Positions 10,052 to 15,021 of a stretch of 44,517 bases of DNA are shown piece after piece. The notes beneath the pieces were generated by a model. The model saw only the letters and a list, made by a program, of their open reading frames with translations, was not told where the DNA came from and did no database searches. The stretch is from Escherichia phage vB_EcoM_SHAK7858. How positions within the stretch are numbered: the first letter of the stretch is position 1; every line of letters begins with the position of its first letter. The DNA is taken from the sequence record OR594183. One strand, given 5' to 3'. Both the position numbers and the translations under genes were made by a program.

Positions 10052-10464
10052 TGGGCTACTTTGAGGACTTAACAAAAGCGTTTGATGTGCCGCTGGTAGC
10101 CTTCGGAACCACCAACGGCATCAAGGTAGCGCTTGAAAACATCGACGCGCCGACGTCAACAGATACGCCGTATCTGGCAAGTTACATGTTGCTGGCGGAT
10201 ACCGAGCAGGCTGACTTATTCTTCACGGAACAACGCGCCGGTGTCTATCAGATAGACATTAACTACGCATCGGTGAAAGGTAGCGCGCCAATCAATAAAA
10301 TGGCAGACTTACTTAACACGGCGTTTAAATCAGGTAAGGCATTTTCGCGTAACGACATCTGCGCCGAGGTTCAATCGGTTAGCCTGGGGCCGCTGATTGT
10401 AGAAAACGGATGGGCCAAACGACCATTGTCAATTAACTTTATTGCATTCACCAAGAGGCTGTGA
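10048..10464 (+). CDS. Putative tail terminator/completion protein
   Basis: Position immediately upstream of the major tail protein gene. Confidence 0.4.
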   Translation: MMGYFEDLTKAFDVPLVAFGTTNGIKVALENIDAPTSTDTPYLASYMLLADTEQADLFFTEQRAGVYQIDINYASVKGSAPINKMADLLNTAFKSGKAFSRNDICAEVQSVSLGPLIVENGWAKRPLSINFIAFTKRL

Positions 10465-10466
10465 AT

Positions 10467-11633
10467 ATGGCTACAACTCCTTTTAAGGGCGCGAATACCG
10501 CGCAATTCTATGTGGCGGAAAATACCCCTGGCGTAACACCGACTAACCCGGTATGGTCGCCGTTGCGTAACACGGGCGGCGTTCCCGCTGTAACCCGCGA
10601 TGCACTGACTTCCAACGAACTGGACGGCAGCCGTGAAACTACATCCATCCGAACCGGTAACAAACAGGTTAGCGGGGAGTACGCCATCGAACTTAGCTCT
10701 CGTAGCCAGGATGATTTCCTTGCGGGAGCGATGACTTCTACGTGGCAAGCTGGGGTAGAGATTACTGGCGCCGAAATTACGGTCGCCCCAGCAGGTAAAA
10801 CATTCACCCGCGCTGCCGGTAGCTTCATTACTGACGGTGTAGAAGTTGGCGACCTGATTGCGTTCACCGACTTAACCGGCGACAACGCAAAACCGTTTAT
10901 CGTGACCGCGGTTTCCGCTCTGGTAGTTACGGGCGCAGGTATTCAGCACACGCTGACAGCAGAGACAGTAACCACTGACGCAAAAACTGGCGACAAGCTG
11001 GAAACCGGTAACGCGTGTAAGACGTTCTCCATCCTGACGTGGTTCAAGGGCCAGTGTGGTAACCCGGGCGCGTACATGCTGACCAAAGGTGTGGAAATCT
11101 CTGGCTTTACCGTAGAGCAGGCGGTTAACGCCATGGTCACCGGCAGCTTCCCGTTCATCGGCCTGAGTCAGGAGATTCTTACCGCGCCGCCGTCTGGCTC
11201 TGATTTCTCTCAGGTTACGTTCACCGATGAGCCGTTCTCGTCGGTAGATGTGTCGGTGTTCGATGGCTCCACGCCGTTGCGTTGCGATACTCTCACCATC
11301 ACCAACGACAACGGAGCTTCCGCGCAGTTCGAACTCGGTAACAGTAGCGTGGCGTTCGTCGAACGTGGACGCGCAGCTAACACATTCTCTATCTCTGGCA
11401 AGCTGTACGACATGGCGATGATTCAGAAGTTTATCAACGAGCAGCAGGTAGAGATTAACTCTATTCTGGCGGGGGTAAACGGGGCTATGTCTTTCAGTTT
11501 GAAACGCGCAGAGCTTACGGCGGTTACACCAGAGATTGGCGGACCTGAGTCAATCACTCAGTCCATTGAGGGGCAGGCCACCGGCAACCAGTACCAGTCG
11601 TCTATCGTAATTCAACGTATCACCTACGCATAA
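10467..11633 (+). CDS. Major tail protein (putative)
   Basis: 389 aa ORF between the neck genes and the chaperone/tape-measure genes, with SD aagagg and a strong terminator downstream. Confidence 0.55.
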   Translation: MATTPFKGANTAQFYVAENTPGVTPTNPVWSPLRNTGGVPAVTRDALTSNELDGSRETTSIRTGNKQVSGEYAIELSSRSQDDFLAGAMTSTWQAGVEITGAEITVAPAGKTFTRAAGSFITDGVEVGDLIAFTDLTGDNAKPFIVTAVSALVVTGAGIQHTLTAETVTTDAKTGDKLETGNACKTFSILTWFKGQCGNPGAYMLTKGVEISGFTVEQAVNAMVTGSFPFIGLSQEILTAPPSGSDFSQVTFTDEPFSSVDVSVFDGSTPLRCDTLTITNDNGASAQFELGNSSVAFVERGRAANTFSISGKLYDMAMIQKFINEQQVEINSILAGVNGAMSFSLKRAELTAVTPEIGGPESITQSIEGQATGNQYQSSIVIQRITYA

Positions 11634-11638
11634 AACTA

Positions 11639-11662
11639 AGGCCCCTTTCGGGGCCTTTTTCT
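11639..11662. terminator. Bidirectional rho-independent terminator
   Basis: aggcccc-tttc-ggggcct with T-run on the + strand and A-run upstream; between convergent genes. Confidence 0.65.
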
Positions 11663-12216
11663 TACAAACCTAATTTTAAAGCAATGTCTATAACGTTCGA
11701 TTTAACGTCACCCGGTATGATGTAGGTGTCGTAATCTTTTACACCACTAACATCATACAGATAGCCACGGCTATCGCCGATGAACGTATAGCCGTCACGA
11801 TGGAGGCGGACGATTCGCACGTCATGCCCCGCGGCGACGATAGGGGCAACTTCACTGGCGAATCCACCATCGGACACTACAAAAACTTCGTCGCCGTCAG
11901 GCAAGTTTTCAGCAAGATACTTACCGAAATAATCATCGCCGAATACCGGTTTAATGAATTGCTCAGAAATGGCAATCATTAACCGGCGGCGGGACAACCC
12001 ATTAAGAAAACCCTCGGGTTTTTCTTTCCGCGCCCGGTCGTCGTAGCCGTCGAGAAAGTCGTGGTAAGCATCCGGGCCTAACGCTGCCAAAGCAATATTG
12101 AACATTGGATTCTTGAAACTGGTAGTTCCTTTCGCAAAGCCCATTTCTACCAGCGCCATAGCAAGCGTGTCTTTCCCGCAACCCGCAGGGCCATTAAGAA
12201 TAATTACCTTAGCCAT
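11662..12216 (-). CDS. P-loop nucleotide kinase (dNMP-kinase-like)
   Basis: N-terminal Walker A GPAGCGKDT resembling phage deoxynucleoside-monophosphate kinases. Confidence 0.6.
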   Translation of the reverse strand: MAKVIILNGPAGCGKDTLAMALVEMGFAKGTTSFKNPMFNIALAALGPDAYHDFLDGYDDRARKEKPEGFLNGLSRRRLMIAISEQFIKPVFGDDYFGKYLAENLPDGDEVFVVSDGGFASEVAPIVAAGHDVRIVRLHRDGYTFIGDSRGYLYDVSGVKDYDTYIIPGDVKSNVIDIALKLGL

Positions 12217-12704
12217 TATTTATCGCTCCCGTGTGGTTTTAAGTGTGTAGAGTTCCCGTTACAGTCGTATTCGGTAACTGCGTGTGCGGTTATGCCGAGG
12301 TCACGGAAATGCTTTATTACCGCTGGAGAGTCGTCGAACGCACACAAGATTCTTTCCAGTCCGAAAGCACGCAACACCTCTTCTTTAATTACGATGTCTT
12401 TTCTGTTGTCGTGTTTGCTGCGCATGATTAGCGTGTCAAACCTAACGTTATTCTCTCGTAACCATTCGCGAGTCTCCTCCTCAGCGTCATCACTTCGCCC
12501 GGTAAGGATAATTATAGTAAGTCCGGAATGCCACAGTACGCTACACAAATGGATATTGTCGTATATCGGAGCGTCATCTTTGCAGGCCATGTTAAATGGC
12601 TTCCACGCCCACGTTTCTCCGTAGTTATCTTTTGGTAACAGGTGTAAGCGATGGGTACCGTCGGCCAATGTCCCGTCTAAATCGAAAATTACAATATCTT
12701 TCAT
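12216..12704 (-). CDS. HAD-superfamily phosphatase (5'-nucleotidase or polynucleotide 3'-phosphatase-like)
   Basis: Motif I FDLDGTL at the N-terminus, downstream motifs consistent with the HAD fold. Confidence 0.65.
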   Translation of the reverse strand: MKDIVIFDLDGTLADGTHRLHLLPKDNYGETWAWKPFNMACKDDAPIYDNIHLCSVLWHSGLTIIILTGRSDDAEEETREWLRENNVRFDTLIMRSKHDNRKDIVIKEEVLRAFGLERILCAFDDSPAVIKHFRDLGITAHAVTEYDCNGNSTHLKPHGSDK

Positions 12705-13831
12705 CCCAGCATCTCCGGTGAAATAGTTAAACGTGCGACCTCGCCATATTCGGCGCTATAAGTAATTACATTTGCACTGCGGCCCGACATCCATCCGCCG
12801 CGAGAGGCGTAGGCGTCTTTAGCCGCTAAGGTGCGGTGTTGCTCAACAATCATGTTACGGCTTTCTACAATCTTCTGGTGGTGCAGATGGCCTACGTGGG
12901 CGTAGCTGTAAACACTCTCGCCGAACGCTTTACGGAACTTGGCAATCATAACCGGTTCGATAGCGTCGAATCGTGCTTTATGCCCGTGATGGAAGAACAG
13001 CGTCGTTTTGCCGTGTTGCACCATCTTATAAACATCCGGCGACGTATCGACGAATACACGAGGCTCGTTGTCGTACAGTGTGCTGAACATCTCCGCCAGC
13101 CAAATCATCCCGGATTCGTCGTGGTTCCCCTGAACTATAAGCAAGCGAACAGTTTTATGCTTAACCAGAGCCATATCAACAACACGGCGGACCATGCGAA
13201 TCATGTAGCGGACAAGTTTCTGGTAACGCGTGTCGGCGTCAAGGACATGACCACTCGCCGGTGTAACGGCGTCAAGACTATCGAAGTGAGCTAAGTCGCC
13301 AAGAAGATTAATAACCCCCGTACCTGCATCCGGTGCTTTCTGAAACGCAGCATCAAACCAACGAGAGAATAAGTCCTCCGCGATTTTCATATCCCAGTCG
13401 TCGCCGCTCTCGTCAGCCCAGGCTAACATACCGAGATGGAAATCAGACACGGTGTACAGGTTAAGCAGCTTGTCGTCACGTTTAGCCCGGGCGGCCTTAA
13501 CTGGCGGAACGGGAGTAATCTCCGACTTCATGCCTTCGACTACGGCTTTCATCAACTCAACCTGACGTTCGGCATCGGTGTCTGTCTTAACCCACTGCAA
13601 CTTAGTGTTACCGAACTCGTCCACCAGAGACGACGTGCCTTTAATCTTGTAGCCGTCTGGTACAAGGTGGCTTACGTCCCGCCCGTGGCCTACGCCTTTC
13701 TTAGCCAGCTTCGCTTTACGGATTCGGATAACGCGGTCTGAGATTCCGTATTTACGGGCGATATCGATATTCTTCATCCCGGCGTTCAATTCTTCCTGTA
13801 ATTGCTCGTCGGTTATTTTCTTCTGGGCCAT
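12701..13831 (-). CDS. HTH-fused calcineurin-like metallophosphoesterase (Mre11/SbcD-like motifs)
   Basis: N-terminal HTH (NIDIARKYGISDRVIRIRK), then DFHLG, GDLAH, GNHD, HHGH and GHLHH motifs. Start taken at the ATG with SD gaggaag; ORF track extends to 13936. Confidence 0.65.
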   Translation of the reverse strand: MAQKKITDEQLQEELNAGMKNIDIARKYGISDRVIRIRKAKLAKKGVGHGRDVSHLVPDGYKIKGTSSLVDEFGNTKLQWVKTDTDAERQVELMKAVVEGMKSEITPVPPVKAARAKRDDKLLNLYTVSDFHLGMLAWADESGDDWDMKIAEDLFSRWFDAAFQKAPDAGTGVINLLGDLAHFDSLDAVTPASGHVLDADTRYQKLVRYMIRMVRRVVDMALVKHKTVRLLIVQGNHDESGMIWLAEMFSTLYDNEPRVFVDTSPDVYKMVQHGKTTLFFHHGHKARFDAIEPVMIAKFRKAFGESVYSYAHVGHLHHQKIVESRNMIVEQHRTLAAKDAYASRGGWMSGRSANVITYSAEYGEVARLTISPEMLG

Positions 13832-13869
13832 GCTTACTTCCTCGTGTTTAGGATTTGTCTTATAGTAGC

Positions 13870-14061
13870 CTACTTCTCTTTCACGTTCGAGTTGCAAGCC
13901 CAGATTAAAATGAATACCCACGGCAACAGAATCCACCCGAGAAATAAGTTAGCCATGAATATCGCCAGCTTTGCTTTATGGTTACGCATATGTGCCACCA
14001 AAAACGGGATAAAATAAACGGCTACAAAAATAATTAAGAAGAACATAGTGATACCGGTCAT
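13870..14061 (-). CDS. Small two-TM membrane protein, superinfection-immunity (Imm)-like
   Basis: Two hydrophobic helices and NLFLGW motif; AT-rich. Start taken at the internal ATG preceded by SD aggag; ORF track extends to 14088. Confidence 0.5.
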   Translation of the reverse strand: MTGITMFFLIIFVAVYFIPFLVAHMRNHKAKLAIFMANLFLGWILLPWVFILIWACNSNVKEK

Positions 14062-14103
14062 AACATAACTCCTGATTTGAGATAACATCGTTGGTGTAAG
14101 TGA

Positions 14104-14132
14104 ATAGTACGCTATTATATTGGGGTGTGCAA
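14104..14132 (-). promoter_or_regulatory. Sigma70-like promoter (TTGCAC-N17-TACTAT) with embedded palindrome TGAATAG-N4-CTATTAT
   Basis: Same architecture as the promoter at 4550-4578; drives the reverse-strand cassette. Confidence 0.45.
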
Positions 14133-14239
14133 GTAGTGTGCTAGAATAATTTTGCGCCTAGTGTCGCACACGAAAAGCGGGTGGTTCCCGTCTGGCGCAT
14201 TTCCTTTAACCAGTAACCTCTTAACCAAAGGATTAAAGA

Positions 14240-14656
14240 ATGAAACTTTCTGATTTTTATTACGAAGCGGAAGCCGAAAAGGGCGCACGTATGCCGATAC
14301 CGCTAAAAGACGGTACTGATTCCGGGGAATGGCTTAATGTTGTTTCTCCTGAGGCGGACGTTGCCGTTAAGGCTATGCGCGCGTTCACCCTTGCATACCG
14401 GGCAGTATTAGGGAAATTAAAACCGCTTCGTGATAAGTGCGAAGAGATGAAAGATTTCTCTGAATACAACCTGAAGATGGAAGACGCGGCGACGGACCTT
14501 AACCGTCAGTTAGCGATTGAATTGGTTAACGGGTGGAGCCTTGACGACGAATTCAATAAAGAGAATCTGAACACACTCCTGACGCAATATAAACGACTCG
14601 CGGAACTTGTTGTTGTGTTTCATAACGAACAACTGCACCAGCTACAGGAAAAGTAG
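14240..14656 (+). CDS. Tail assembly chaperone (gpG-like, putative)
   Basis: Position immediately upstream of the tape measure gene. Confidence 0.5.
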   Translation: MKLSDFYYEAEAEKGARMPIPLKDGTDSGEWLNVVSPEADVAVKAMRAFTLAYRAVLGKLKPLRDKCEEMKDFSEYNLKMEDAATDLNRQLAIELVNGWSLDDEFNKENLNTLLTQYKRLAELVVVFHNEQLHQLQEK

Positions 14657-14661
14657 ACGCG

Positions 14662-15021
14662 TTGCTCCAGTTCGCCCGTTGGAACTTCATAACCCGCCAC
14701 AAACGGCGGGAATTTGACAGTATCGCCGATGGGCATAAAGCCGCGCTAATTGCTATGGGGGTTATGCAAGACGCGCCGGATGCAACGCAGGCCGCTGGGC
14801 CGGAATGCCCCCCTGAGCTACTAACCACATTTGAGAAGTACAGGGAAATTAAATTCACCCGCCGAGTGGACGACGACGGCATCAAGATGTATCCGCGTGA
14901 ACAGTTAAGATGGTCGGATTTAGTGGCATATAGCACCGTTTCAGGCCAGAATATAGGCATGTTTGAATCTGACATCATCATGAGCTTAGACGCTATTTTC
15001 GAGGGTAGAAACGATGGCTGA
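14662..15021 (+). CDS. Tail assembly chaperone second frame (possible -1 frameshift extension, gpGT-like)
   Basis: Lies in the -1 frame relative to 14240-14656, and that frame is already open from about 14626; no canonical slippery heptamer identified. Confidence 0.35.
   Translation: MLQFARWNFITRHKRREFDSIADGHKAALIAMGVMQDAPDATQAAGPECPPELLTTFEKYREIKFTRRVDDDGIKMYPREQLRWSDLVAYSTVSGQNIGMFESDIIMSLDAIFEGRNDG

What the first reader, a model, noticed from the sequence alone, without database searches (positions are those of the whole stretch)
11662..14132. Reverse-strand enzyme cassette inserted between the major tail and tail-chaperone genes
Four minus-strand genes with their own promoter (14104-14132) and flanking terminator (11639-11662) interrupt an otherwise colinear + strand tail module. 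They encode an Imm-like two-TM membrane protein, a 376-aa protein fusing an N-terminal HTH to a calcineurin-like phosphoesterase with Mre11/SbcD-type motifs, a HAD phosphatase (FDLDGTL) and a P-loop kinase (GPAGCGKDT). The Imm-like gene is AT-rich, suggesting separate acquisition. Kinase plus phosphatase plus phosphoesterase together resemble the parts list of nucleic-acid end-healing enzymes (polynucleotide kinase-phosphatase type), here split into separate genes and linked to a membrane exclusion protein. Alternative readings: nucleotide-pool enzymes (dNMP kinase plus 5'-nucleotidase), or a cyclic-nucleotide phosphodiesterase acting against host signalling defences. No ligase was seen in the window. 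I could not assign the cassette to a described system from the sequence alone.
Basis: partly seen in the sequence, partly recalled or inferred. Interest (0 to 1): 0.85.

Follow-up and report, generated by a model that had tools for sequence, protein, structure and literature searches.

The report
Mosaic DNA/nucleotide-enzyme island in phage tail module
Four reverse-strand genes between the tail-tube and tail-chaperone genes of this Kagunavirus phage form a patchwork accessory island: a superinfection-exclusion membrane protein, a very conserved DNA-binding Mre11-like nuclease, and an optional phosphatase plus nucleotide-kinase pair; it most likely breaks down DNA and recycles nucleotides, and its function has never been tested.

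Summary
The window is a complete Kagunavirus genome (about 98% identical to phages Golestan and fEg-Eco06). Four minus-strand genes lie between the tail tube gene and the tail assembly chaperone genes:
- An Imm_superinfect two-TM protein.
- A 376-aa HTH-metallophosphoesterase.
- A HAD phosphatase.
- A P-loop kinase.

The last three are translationally coupled.
- **HAD:** a full-length homologue of the T4 Pnkp phosphatase domain.
- **Ligase:** none in the genome.

The cassette is not one system and not a recent insertion. The nuclease sits at this junction throughout Kagunavirus and Jerseyvirus under very strong purifying selection. The first slot holds Imm or an unrelated secreted protein. HAD plus kinase are optional.

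The nuclease-HAD-kinase triad recurs in Drexlerviridae and in T7-like Gajwadongvirus, where a DNA ligase follows it.

My best reading (about 0.45) is DNA breakdown plus nucleotide recycling, analogous but not homologous to T5 A1/Dmp/Dnk. Split end-healing remains a real rival. GenBank records already name these genes, but I found no report of an experimental test of any of them. Interest is moderate.

The parts
11638..11657 (.). Bidirectional G+C-rich hairpin terminator shared by the tail tube gene (+) and the cassette (-)
   Evidence: 8-bp stem with 6 G-C pairs and loop TTTC. T-run TTTTTCTT on the + strand, AGTTTTATGC on the - strand.
11662..12216 (-). 184-aa P-loop kinase, a compact relative of the dNMP kinases T4 gp1 and T5 Dnk; optional gene of the island
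12216..12704 (-). 162-aa stand-alone HAD phosphatase, homologous to the 3'-phosphatase domain of T4 Pnkp; optional gene, always upstream of the kinase
   Evidence: Pfam HAD_PNKP E 3.3e-20. PDB hits to Pnkp1 and T4 Pnkp. BLASTP against T4 PseT residues 162-300, E 4e-10. D8, D10, R19, T68, G69, K107 and D125 are at least 95% conserved.
12701..13831 (-). 376-aa protein: N-terminal three-helix HTH, a beta-hairpin/helix linker, then an Mre11/SbcD/DP1-like metallophosphoesterase; the constant core of the island
13870..14061 (-). 63-aa two-TM Imm_superinfect protein (raw ORF extends to 14088); occupies a swappable first slot
   Evidence: Pfam PF14373 50.6 bits against a cut-off of 27.9. PHROG 1039. 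Two hydrophobic segments. Replaced by an unrelated secreted protein of about 110 aa in K1H-type phages.
14104..14132 (-). Putative sigma-70-type promoter of the cassette (TTGCAC, 17 nt, TACTAT)
   Evidence: Weak match, 7 of 12, not called by the scan. Both hexamers and the spacing are conserved from Kagunavirus to Jerseyvirus and upstream of different first genes.
10461..11633 (+). Context: tail tube gene, last gene before the island
   Evidence: Phage_tube_2 E 3.6e-35.
14240..15021 (+). Context: two tail assembly chaperone genes that restart the + strand tail module
   Evidence: Phage_TAC_4 E 1.1e-7 and Phage_TAC_18 E 1.4e-18.

Best explanation
The region is a separately transcribed accessory island at a natural transcription-unit boundary: the terminator after the tail tube gene and the restart before the chaperone genes. 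It is assembled from three independently mobile units rather than being one system.

- **Unit 1.** A swappable first slot, here holding a T4-Imm-type inner-membrane protein that excludes superinfecting phage DNA.
- **Unit 2.** The constant core: a stand-alone, HTH-tethered, Mn-type Mre11/SbcD/DP1-like DNA nuclease. I infer that it degrades DNA, most probably the host chromosome, as the metallophosphatase A1 does for phage T5.
- **Unit 3.** An optional, co-translated pair.
  - A Pnkp-type HAD 3'-phosphatase. I infer that it strips 3'-phosphates from DNA ends or from 3'-phosphorylated nucleotides.
  - A gp1/Dnk-like kinase. I infer that it converts the resulting 5'-dNMPs to dNDPs, which the host's nucleoside diphosphate kinase would then convert to dNTPs for phage DNA synthesis.

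**Shown:** gene structure, family and fold assignments, intact catalytic residues, synteny and its variation, and purifying selection.

**Inferred:** the substrates, the host-DNA target, early expression from a host-type promoter, and any cooperation among the three enzymes.
For: **Kinase.** Its best structural match is the T4 gp1 dNMP kinase over 92% of its length. It shares motifs beyond the P-loop with gp1 and T5 Dnk.

**HAD.** It keeps the T4 Pnkp phosphatase residues. A 45%-identical stand-alone copy in phage JSE lies directly after nrdA-nrdB and upstream of denA, beside a genuine pseT.

**Context in other phages.** In T7-like ECBP5 the triad follows the exonuclease and endonuclease genes of the DNA-metabolism region.

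**Precedent from papers.**
- T5 A1, a predicted metallophosphatase, is necessary and sufficient for host DNA degradation. It acts alongside the dNMP phosphatase Dmp (bioRxiv 10.64898/2026.04.02.716235).
- A Tunavirinae phage triggers a defence that senses m6-dAMP from host DNA breakdown (bioRxiv 10.64898/2026.01.15.699771).
- An MPE nuclease can leave 3'-phosphate ends (PMC7826289).

**Mosaic nature:**

**Selection.** MPE shows 102 synonymous against 7 non-synonymous codon changes; the tube gene shows 118 against 40.
Against: - No member of any of the three enzyme families has been assayed.
- The kinase fails Pfam DNMK and replaces the D-x-R of gp1/Dnk with DGG, so its substrate could differ.
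- By homology the HAD is a polynucleotide 3'-phosphatase, not a known nucleotidase.
- No sequence homology to T5 A1 (hhalign probability 16%). Similarity to Dmp is marginal.
- I found no report that Kagunavirus degrades host DNA.
- A ligase directly follows the triad in Gajwadongvirus-like loci, which also suits end repair.
- A phosphatase strictly paired with a kinase is the classic end-healing logic.
Confidence: 0.45

Rival explanations
1. Split end-healing pathway. The HAD removes 3'-phosphates and the kinase phosphorylates 5'-OH ends of broken DNA or RNA. The MPE trims or opens damaged ends. Sealing is left to host LigA or RtcB, or to a phage DNA ligase where one is present. The pathway would repair phage DNA or host tRNA cut by defence nucleases.
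For: - The HAD is a true homologue of the Pnkp phosphatase domain.
- HAD and kinase are always adjacent in the order HAD then kinase in every locus where the kinase is at least about 44% identical. They are co-translated.
- An ATP-dependent DNA ligase directly follows the triad in L035, L037 and ECBP5.
- Clostridium thermocellum Pnkp uses a metallophosphoesterase for end healing (PMC2190708).
- An MPE nuclease can create 3'-phosphate ends (PMC7826289).
Against: - No ligase of any tested type occurs in this genome.
- The MPE falls with nucleases, not with the lambda-phosphatase-like clade used by CthPnkp.
- T7-like phages carry a ligase anyway, so the adjacency may be incidental.
- HAD and kinase are separated by five ORFs, and lie 12 kb from the MPE, in SECphi27.
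Confidence: 0.25
2. Counter-defence by removing nucleotide signals. The MPE would hydrolyse cyclic (oligo)nucleotide messengers. Alternatively or additionally, the HAD and kinase would clear m6-dAMP, the danger signal sensed by the Metis and PUA-Cal-HAD systems, by dephosphorylating or phosphorylating it.
For: - HAD plus kinase are variably present among close relatives, as accessory counter-defence genes often are.
- The host HAD MisB destroys m6-dAMP, and both defences are triggered by phage-driven host DNA degradation (bioRxiv 10.1101/2025.11.05.686725 and 10.64898/2026.01.15.699771).
- The island shares an operon with an exclusion gene.
Against: - No similarity to any known anti-defence protein, and no PADLOC hits.
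- The MPE carries a DNA-binding HTH and is best matched by nucleases.
- The MPE's extreme conservation and near-universal presence in several phage families (2049 phage records) look like a core function rather than an arms-race gene.
- The HAD is Pnkp-type (3'-phosphatase logic), whereas m6-dAMP is a 5'-monophosphate.
Confidence: 0.12
3. The MPE is not a host-DNA degrader. It would be a replication, recombination or maturation nuclease (SbcD-like hairpin or end processing, or concatemer resolution), or a DNA-binding regulator. HAD and kinase would then be unrelated passengers that balance nucleotide pools.
For: - The MPE is extremely conserved and always present.
- It sits directly upstream of terS in Dhillonvirus and next to helicase, methylase and lysis genes in T1-like phages.
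- The HTH gives weak matches to sigma-70 region 4 / GerE and to a late transcriptional activator PHROG.
Against: - No SbcC/Rad50 partner is annotated in the genome.
- The phage already encodes a separate exonuclease next to its polymerase.
- A regulator would not need an intact dinuclear metal site.
Confidence: 0.18

Closest known systems
T4 polynucleotide kinase-phosphatase (PseT/Pnkp)
   Same: The HAD aligns end to end with Pnkp residues 162-300 (26% identity, E 4e-10). The DxDGT motif, the Arg after motif I, [ST]GR, RKD..K and DD are conserved. A kinase gene is obligately adjacent.
   Different: - Two separate genes in the reverse order (phosphatase first).
- The kinase is not the Pnkp kinase type.
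- The HAD has a conserved insertion of about 16 residues after motif I that Pnkp lacks.
- No RNA or DNA ligase partner occurs in the genome.
dNMP kinases T4 gp1 (PDB 1DEK) and T5 Dnk (Pfam DNMK)
   Same: - Shared GKDT P-loop, F/A-K-P, S.R[RK][LM][LM] and downstream Asp.
- PHROG 139 groups them.
   Different: - 184 aa against 241-250 aa; it lacks the long insert of gp1 and Dnk.
- DGG replaces their D-x-R.
- No Pfam DNMK match for this or for 42 relatives.
- Substrate unknown.
Phage T5 pre-early set A1 (metallophosphatase, host DNA degradation), Dmp (dNMP phosphatase), early Dnk
   Same: The same parts list: a metallophosphoesterase, a DxDGT phosphatase and a dNMP-type kinase, with a small two-TM protein and a DNA-binding function in the same operon (bioRxiv 10.64898/2026.04.02.716235).
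   Different: - No detectable homology to A1, A2 or T5.005.
- Only the motif I region resembles Dmp.
- The HTH is fused to the MPE here but is a separate protein in T5.
- T5 discards host nucleotides, whereas a kinase coupled to the phosphatase here suggests reuse.
Mre11/SbcD nucleases and the PolD DP1 proofreading exonuclease
   Different: - No Rad50/SbcC or polymerase partner.
- N-terminal HTH and beta-hairpin module.
- Below Pfam's Metallophos cut-off.
Pseudomonas putida MPE (DNA-repair operon endonuclease)
   Different: Much smaller (about 200 aa), bacterial, lies in an Lhr-ligase operon, and is only a distant fold relative.
T4 Imm superinfection immunity protein
   Same: Pfam Imm_superinfect above the cut-off; two TM segments.
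   Different: 63 aa. Located in a tail module of a siphovirus. Replaced by an unrelated secreted protein in sister phages.

Membership tests
T4-type polynucleotide kinase-phosphatase / end-healing system | HAD (DxDxT) 3'-phosphatase domain homologous to the Pnkp C-terminal domain | tested here: met
   Pfam HAD_PNKP 73.1 bits against a cut-off of 27.6. PDB hits 4xrp, 5uj0 and 1ltq. BLASTP E 4e-10 over the whole domain.
T4-type polynucleotide kinase-phosphatase / end-healing system | Pnkp-type P-loop 5'-OH polynucleotide kinase domain | tested here: not met
   [not shown]
T4-type polynucleotide kinase-phosphatase / end-healing system | Kinase and phosphatase in one polypeptide, kinase N-terminal | tested here: not met
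   Separate genes in the order HAD then kinase. No fused homologues among the hits.
T4-type polynucleotide kinase-phosphatase / end-healing system | Partner ligase encoded by the same genome | tested here: not met
   No ligase is annotated in the near-identical Golestan genome. tblastn with ATP-dependent DNA ligase, NAD-dependent ligase and Rnl1 queries gave a best E of 0.49. A ligase is adjacent only in Gajwadongvirus-like relatives.
T4-type polynucleotide kinase-phosphatase / end-healing system | Activity on 5'-OH, 3'-phosphate or 2',3'-cyclic phosphate ends | not testable with these tools
   Needs enzyme assays.
dNMP kinase (T4 gp1 / T5 Dnk; Pfam DNMK PF21448) | Match to the Pfam DNMK profile above its cut-off | tested here: not met
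   No DNMK hit for the window protein. None either for 42 relatives, whereas gp1 and Dnk both hit.
dNMP kinase (T4 gp1 / T5 Dnk; Pfam DNMK PF21448) | gp1-like fold over the whole protein | tested here: met
   [not shown]
dNMP kinase (T4 gp1 / T5 Dnk; Pfam DNMK PF21448) | Shared sequence motifs beyond the P-loop | tested here: inconclusive
   hhalign to Dnk gives 95% probability, but over only 49 residues; to gp1 it gives 40%. MAFFT aligns S.RRLM and two Asp residues, but D-x-R is DGG here.
dNMP kinase (T4 gp1 / T5 Dnk; Pfam DNMK PF21448) | Phosphorylation of dNMPs | not testable with these tools
   Needs enzyme assays.
Mre11/SbcD-type metallophosphoesterase nuclease | Five MPE motifs with all metal ligands, plus the motif II histidine (GDLxH) | tested here: met
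   D130, H132, D179, N236, H237, H282 and H317 are invariant; H182, H284 and H315 are at least 90% conserved in 36 sequences of 31-50% identity.
Mre11/SbcD-type metallophosphoesterase nuclease | Fold closest to nuclease members of the superfamily | tested here: met
   [not shown]
Mre11/SbcD-type metallophosphoesterase nuclease | Rad50/SbcC ATPase partner | tested here: not met
   None is annotated in the near-identical genome. The only 'SbcD' label is a 45-aa ORF.
Mre11/SbcD-type metallophosphoesterase nuclease | Pfam Metallophos match above its cut-off | tested here: not met
   Metallophos 18.8 bits against 21.5; Metallophos_2 21.7 against 27.
Imm_superinfect (T4 Imm) | Profile match above the cut-off and two transmembrane segments | tested here: met
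   50.6 bits against 27.9. Hydrophobic segments at about residues 3-23 and 33-55.
Imm_superinfect (T4 Imm) | Blocks DNA entry of superinfecting phage | not testable with these tools
   Needs exclusion assays.
T5 A1 / Dmp host-DNA degradation proteins | Sequence homology to A1 and Dmp | tested here: not met
   A1: hhalign probability 16%, over the NHD motif only. Dmp: pairwise E 5e-4 limited to motif I. A2 and T5.005: no similarity.
Known anti-phage defence systems (PADLOC-DB 2.0) | Match to any model | tested here: not met
   No hit for any of the four proteins at E up to 0.01. The library predates Metis and PUA-Cal-HAD.

The most novel reading that the evidence does not exclude
The HTH-tethered stand-alone Mre11-like nuclease would be the so far unidentified host-chromosome degradation enzyme of the small enterobacterial siphoviruses: T1-like Drexlerviridae, Dhillonvirus and Guernseyvirinae. 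It is found in 2049 phage records and about 4600 clusters at 50% identity. The optional Pnkp-type phosphatase plus mini dNMP kinase would form a two-enzyme adaptor. That adaptor would turn the nuclease's breakdown products into usable dNDPs and, as a side effect or as its main purpose, remove the (m6-)dNMP danger signal read by the Metis and PUA-Cal-HAD defences.
Probability: 0.15. Interest if true: 0.65.

Novelty: new variant of a known kind. Interest (0 to 1): 0.36.

Why it matters
The MPE family is one of the most widespread uncharacterised enzymes of coliphage-type siphoviruses and is under unusually tight constraint. Two kinds of phage defence described in 2025-26 are triggered by products of phage-driven host DNA degradation, yet I found no paper that names the responsible nuclease in T1-like and related phages.

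If this protein is that nuclease, and if the phosphatase-kinase pair processes its products, three things would follow:
- It would link a common unannotated gene set to nucleotide economy and to immune sensing.
- It would explain why the pair comes and goes between close relatives.
- It would give phage engineers a dispensable locus, with its own promoter and terminator, inside the tail module.

If the genes are simply routine DNA-metabolism enzymes, the finding is ordinary. The domain names are already in dozens of GenBank records.

Tried and rejected
- **Sequence searches against PDB.** Single-sequence and profile searches found only P-loop matches for the kinase. They found nothing significant for the MPE. 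Structure prediction was needed.
- **Curated libraries.** NCBIfam and PADLOC gave nothing useful.
- **Locus scan.** A scan of viral contigs with the MPE alignment failed because no stretch was conserved enough.
- **BFVD fold search.** It returned only unnamed or generically named phage MPEs and did not identify T5 A1 among the matches.
- **Expression timing.** The one Kagunavirus transcriptome paper (PMC12645636) uses 5-120 min multi-cycle sampling and mentions only the Imm gene, so it gives no usable timing.
- **Literature.** Searches for functional work on this cassette in Kagunavirus, Guernseyvirinae or Drexlerviridae found none. A phage Tn-seq preprint does not cover these phages.
- **Rejected: Imm acquired separately because it is AT-rich.** GC3 is normal.
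- **Rejected: the cassette as a single co-inherited system.** Synteny varies.
- **Considered: the perfect TATAAT at about 14114-14119 as the -10 element.** It is not conserved in Jerseyvirus, whereas TACTAT/TATTAT is.


Full report
**What the window is.** The 3-kb region is 98-99% identical to Escherichia phages fEg-Eco06, phiEc4 and Golestan (Guernseyvirinae, genus Kagunavirus). The window is colinear with the complete 44.8-kb Golestan genome. GenBank records already label the four genes, variously, as 'deoxynucleoside monophosphate kinase / ATP-binding protein', 'polynucleotide kinase / acid phosphatase', 'DNA repair exonuclease / calcineurin-like phosphoesterase' and 'superinfection immunity protein'. 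I found no paper that tests any of them.

**Check of the observation.**
- The four minus-strand genes are real: kinase 11662-12216, HAD 12216-12704, HTH-MPE 12701-13831, Imm 13870-14061.
- The MPE stop overlaps the HAD start (ATGA), and the HAD stop overlaps the kinase start (TAATG). Imm and MPE each have a good Shine-Dalgarno sequence.
- The flanks are the tail tube gene and two tail assembly chaperone genes followed by the tape measure gene.
- The hairpin at 11638-11657 is a strong terminator for the + strand tube gene and a weaker one for the cassette.
- The proposed promoter matches the consensus poorly, and the scan did not call it. Its two hexamers and 17-nt spacing are nevertheless conserved from Kagunavirus to Salmonella Jerseyvirus, even where a different gene follows.
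- The island therefore sits at a transcription-unit boundary with its own likely host-type promoter.
- The AT-richness of Imm reflects its hydrophobic amino acids. GC at codon positions 1+2 is 0.31, while GC3 is 0.578 against a genome mean of 0.554.

**The kinase.**
- Pfam sees only a P-loop. PHROG 139, 'dNMP kinase', matches at 1.6e-44.
- An AlphaFold model built on 31 homologues has pLDDT 94.6.
- T4 Pnkp is not among the 60 best matches.
- A profile comparison with T5 Dnk gives 95% probability over the first 49 residues. The comparison with T4 Pnkp covers the P-loop only.
- In a joint alignment the family shares GKDT, F-K-x-P, S-x-R-R-L-M and two aspartates with gp1 and Dnk. It lacks their long insert and has DGG where they have D-x-R.
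- Neither this protein nor 42 relatives match Pfam DNMK.
- It is thus a compact sister family of the dNMP kinases, with its substrate unproven.

**The HAD.**
- It matches Pfam HAD_PNKP (E 3.3e-20) and the solved Pnkp1 and T4 Pnkp phosphatase domains.
- It aligns over the whole T4 domain, residues 162-300.
- Motif I (D8, D10, G11, T12), R19, T68-G69, the R-x-D-x-x-x-K block and D125 are at least 95% conserved among 36 family members.
- A conserved insertion of about 16 residues after motif I (P24, W34, N38, D44, P46) is absent from T4 Pnkp. It might narrow the substrate range, but that is inference.
- A 45%-identical stand-alone copy in phage JSE sits directly after nrdA-nrdB and before denA, alongside a genuine pseT. 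That is a nucleotide-metabolism neighbourhood.

**The HTH-metallophosphoesterase.**
- The family is very large: 4637 clusters at 50% identity, nearly all 370-420 aa, and 2049 phage records.
- Every metal ligand of the calcineurin-like fold is invariant or nearly so, as is the Mre11-type histidine of GDLxH.
- The model (pLDDT 89) shows a three-helix HTH, a beta-hairpin plus helix, and then the MPE core.
- LpxH scores 14.0, a cyclic-nucleotide phosphodiesterase 12.5, and protein phosphatases 9.1 or less.
- It is the most constrained gene in the region. Against phage K1H it shows 102 synonymous and 7 non-synonymous codon changes. The tube gene shows 118 and 40.
- No Rad50/SbcC-like partner is annotated.

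**The island is a mosaic.**
- Of 80 viral-contig loci that encode a kinase relative, all 16 Kagunavirus loci carry MPE-HAD-kinase.
- Seven further lineages carry the same triad in the same order.
- Twelve loci carry HAD then kinase without a recognised MPE nearby. In three of those (phiAS7-like) the upstream gene is a divergent Metallophos protein.
- The 45 most distant kinases stand alone.
- Jerseyvirus phages SETP7 and sidste, and the Kagunavirus phages Bas71 and fEg-Eco19, keep the MPE at the tube/chaperone junction. They have small ORFs, an HNH endonuclease or a DNA-binding protein instead of HAD and kinase.
- In K1H-type phages the Imm slot holds an unrelated protein of about 110 aa with a signal peptide.
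- T1 and Dhillonvirus carry the MPE alone, beside the lysis genes or directly upstream of terS.
- Drexlerviridae phage TR2 has the triad beside the lysis genes.
- In SECphi27 the three genes are scattered over 15 kb.
- In T7-like ECBP5 the triad follows the exonuclease and endonuclease genes, and an ATP-dependent DNA ligase follows the triad.
- The window itself has no ligase homologue.

**Mechanism.** I favour DNA breakdown plus nucleotide recycling (confidence about 0.45).
- *Steps.* An HTH-anchored Mre11-like nuclease degrades DNA, probably the host chromosome. The Pnkp-type phosphatase clears 3'-phosphates from ends or nucleotides. The gp1-like kinase makes dNDPs. Imm is an unrelated exclusion gene that shares the transcript.
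- *Support.* The kinase and MPE folds, and the neighbourhoods in JSE and ECBP5.
- *Precedent.* In T5 the metallophosphatase A1 is necessary and sufficient for host DNA degradation and works alongside the dNMP phosphatase Dmp (bioRxiv 10.64898/2026.04.02.716235).
- *Related observations.* A Tunavirinae phage triggers a defence that senses m6-dAMP from degraded host DNA (bioRxiv 10.64898/2026.01.15.699771). An MPE nuclease can leave 3'-phosphates (PMC7826289).
- *Limit of the T5 parallel.* It is functional only. I found no homology to A1, A2 or T5.005, and only motif-level similarity to Dmp.
- *Main rival: split end-healing (0.25).* The Pnkp-type HAD, the strict HAD-kinase pairing and the ligase adjacency in Gajwadongvirus keep it alive.
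- *Other rivals.* Nucleotide-signal erasure (0.12) and a replication or maturation role for the MPE (0.18) are not excluded.

**Verdict.** The thing is a conserved but modular accessory island built from known enzyme families, already named in public records and never characterised. Interest is moderate. The most interesting element is not the four-gene 'system' but the very widespread, tightly constrained HTH-MPE nuclease and its optional phosphatase-kinase companion.

Noticed in passing
L013:3990-4320, L016 (phage K1H), L019, L020; corresponds to window 13870-14088: In some Kagunavirus phages the Imm slot holds an unrelated ORF of about 110 aa that starts MRKLVLALGFMSFAAFGSPCEQ. It has a signal-peptide-like N-terminus and is possibly a periplasmic or lipoprotein exclusion factor. 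It lies behind the same conserved promoter-like sequence.
   Followed up: partly
window 14140-14200 (minus-strand reading GCGCCAGACGGGAACCACCCGCTTTTCGTGTGCGAC): A G+C-rich stretch of about 40 nt in the divergent intergenic region is almost invariant between Kagunavirus and Jerseyvirus. It contains a short CGGG/CCCG hairpin followed by TTTT. It may be an operator or the control region of the chaperone/tape-measure operon.
   Followed up: no
L092:3840-7103 (phage ECBP5), L037, L039, L035: T7-like Gajwadongvirus phages carry exonuclease, endonuclease, HTH-MPE (annotated 'oxidoreductase'), HAD, kinase and an unannotated ATP-dependent DNA ligase as one consecutive block.
   Followed up: partly
L095:124-858 (T5 dmp): T5 Dmp, the 5'-dNMP phosphatase, has no Pfam match. 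Its N-terminus (IWDLDGTIINSFHRV) resembles motif I plus the following His-Arg of the window HAD (IFDLDGTLADGTHRL), with pairwise E 5e-4.
   Followed up: partly
L087:3998-4474 (phage JSE, EpJSE_00235): Krischvirus JSE has a stand-alone HAD_PNKP gene that overlaps the end of nrdB, in addition to a full-length pseT. It is annotated 'polynucleotide kinase' although it has no kinase domain.
   Followed up: partly
L052:4485-5447, also L047 and L054 (phiAS7-like podoviruses): A 321-aa Metallophos protein that my iterative search did not recognise as a member of the HTH-MPE family sits directly upstream of HAD-kinase and just before the phage RNA polymerase gene. The triad is therefore probably more widespread than my count.
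   Followed up: no
window 11638-11657 and 14089-14239: Late + strand transcription of the tail module appears to be interrupted by a strong terminator right after the tube gene. It must restart before the chaperone genes, and no + strand promoter was called in the gap.
   Followed up: no
L001:24254-24391 (Golestan gp31): A 45-aa ORF is annotated 'exonuclease subunit SbcD' in the RefSeq record. It is far too short to be one and looks like an annotation artefact.
   Followed up: no
window 12836-13294 (+ strand): A 152-aa ORF lies antisense to the MPE gene. It is not annotated in relatives and is most likely a chance ORF in a gene whose synonymous sites vary freely.
   Followed up: no
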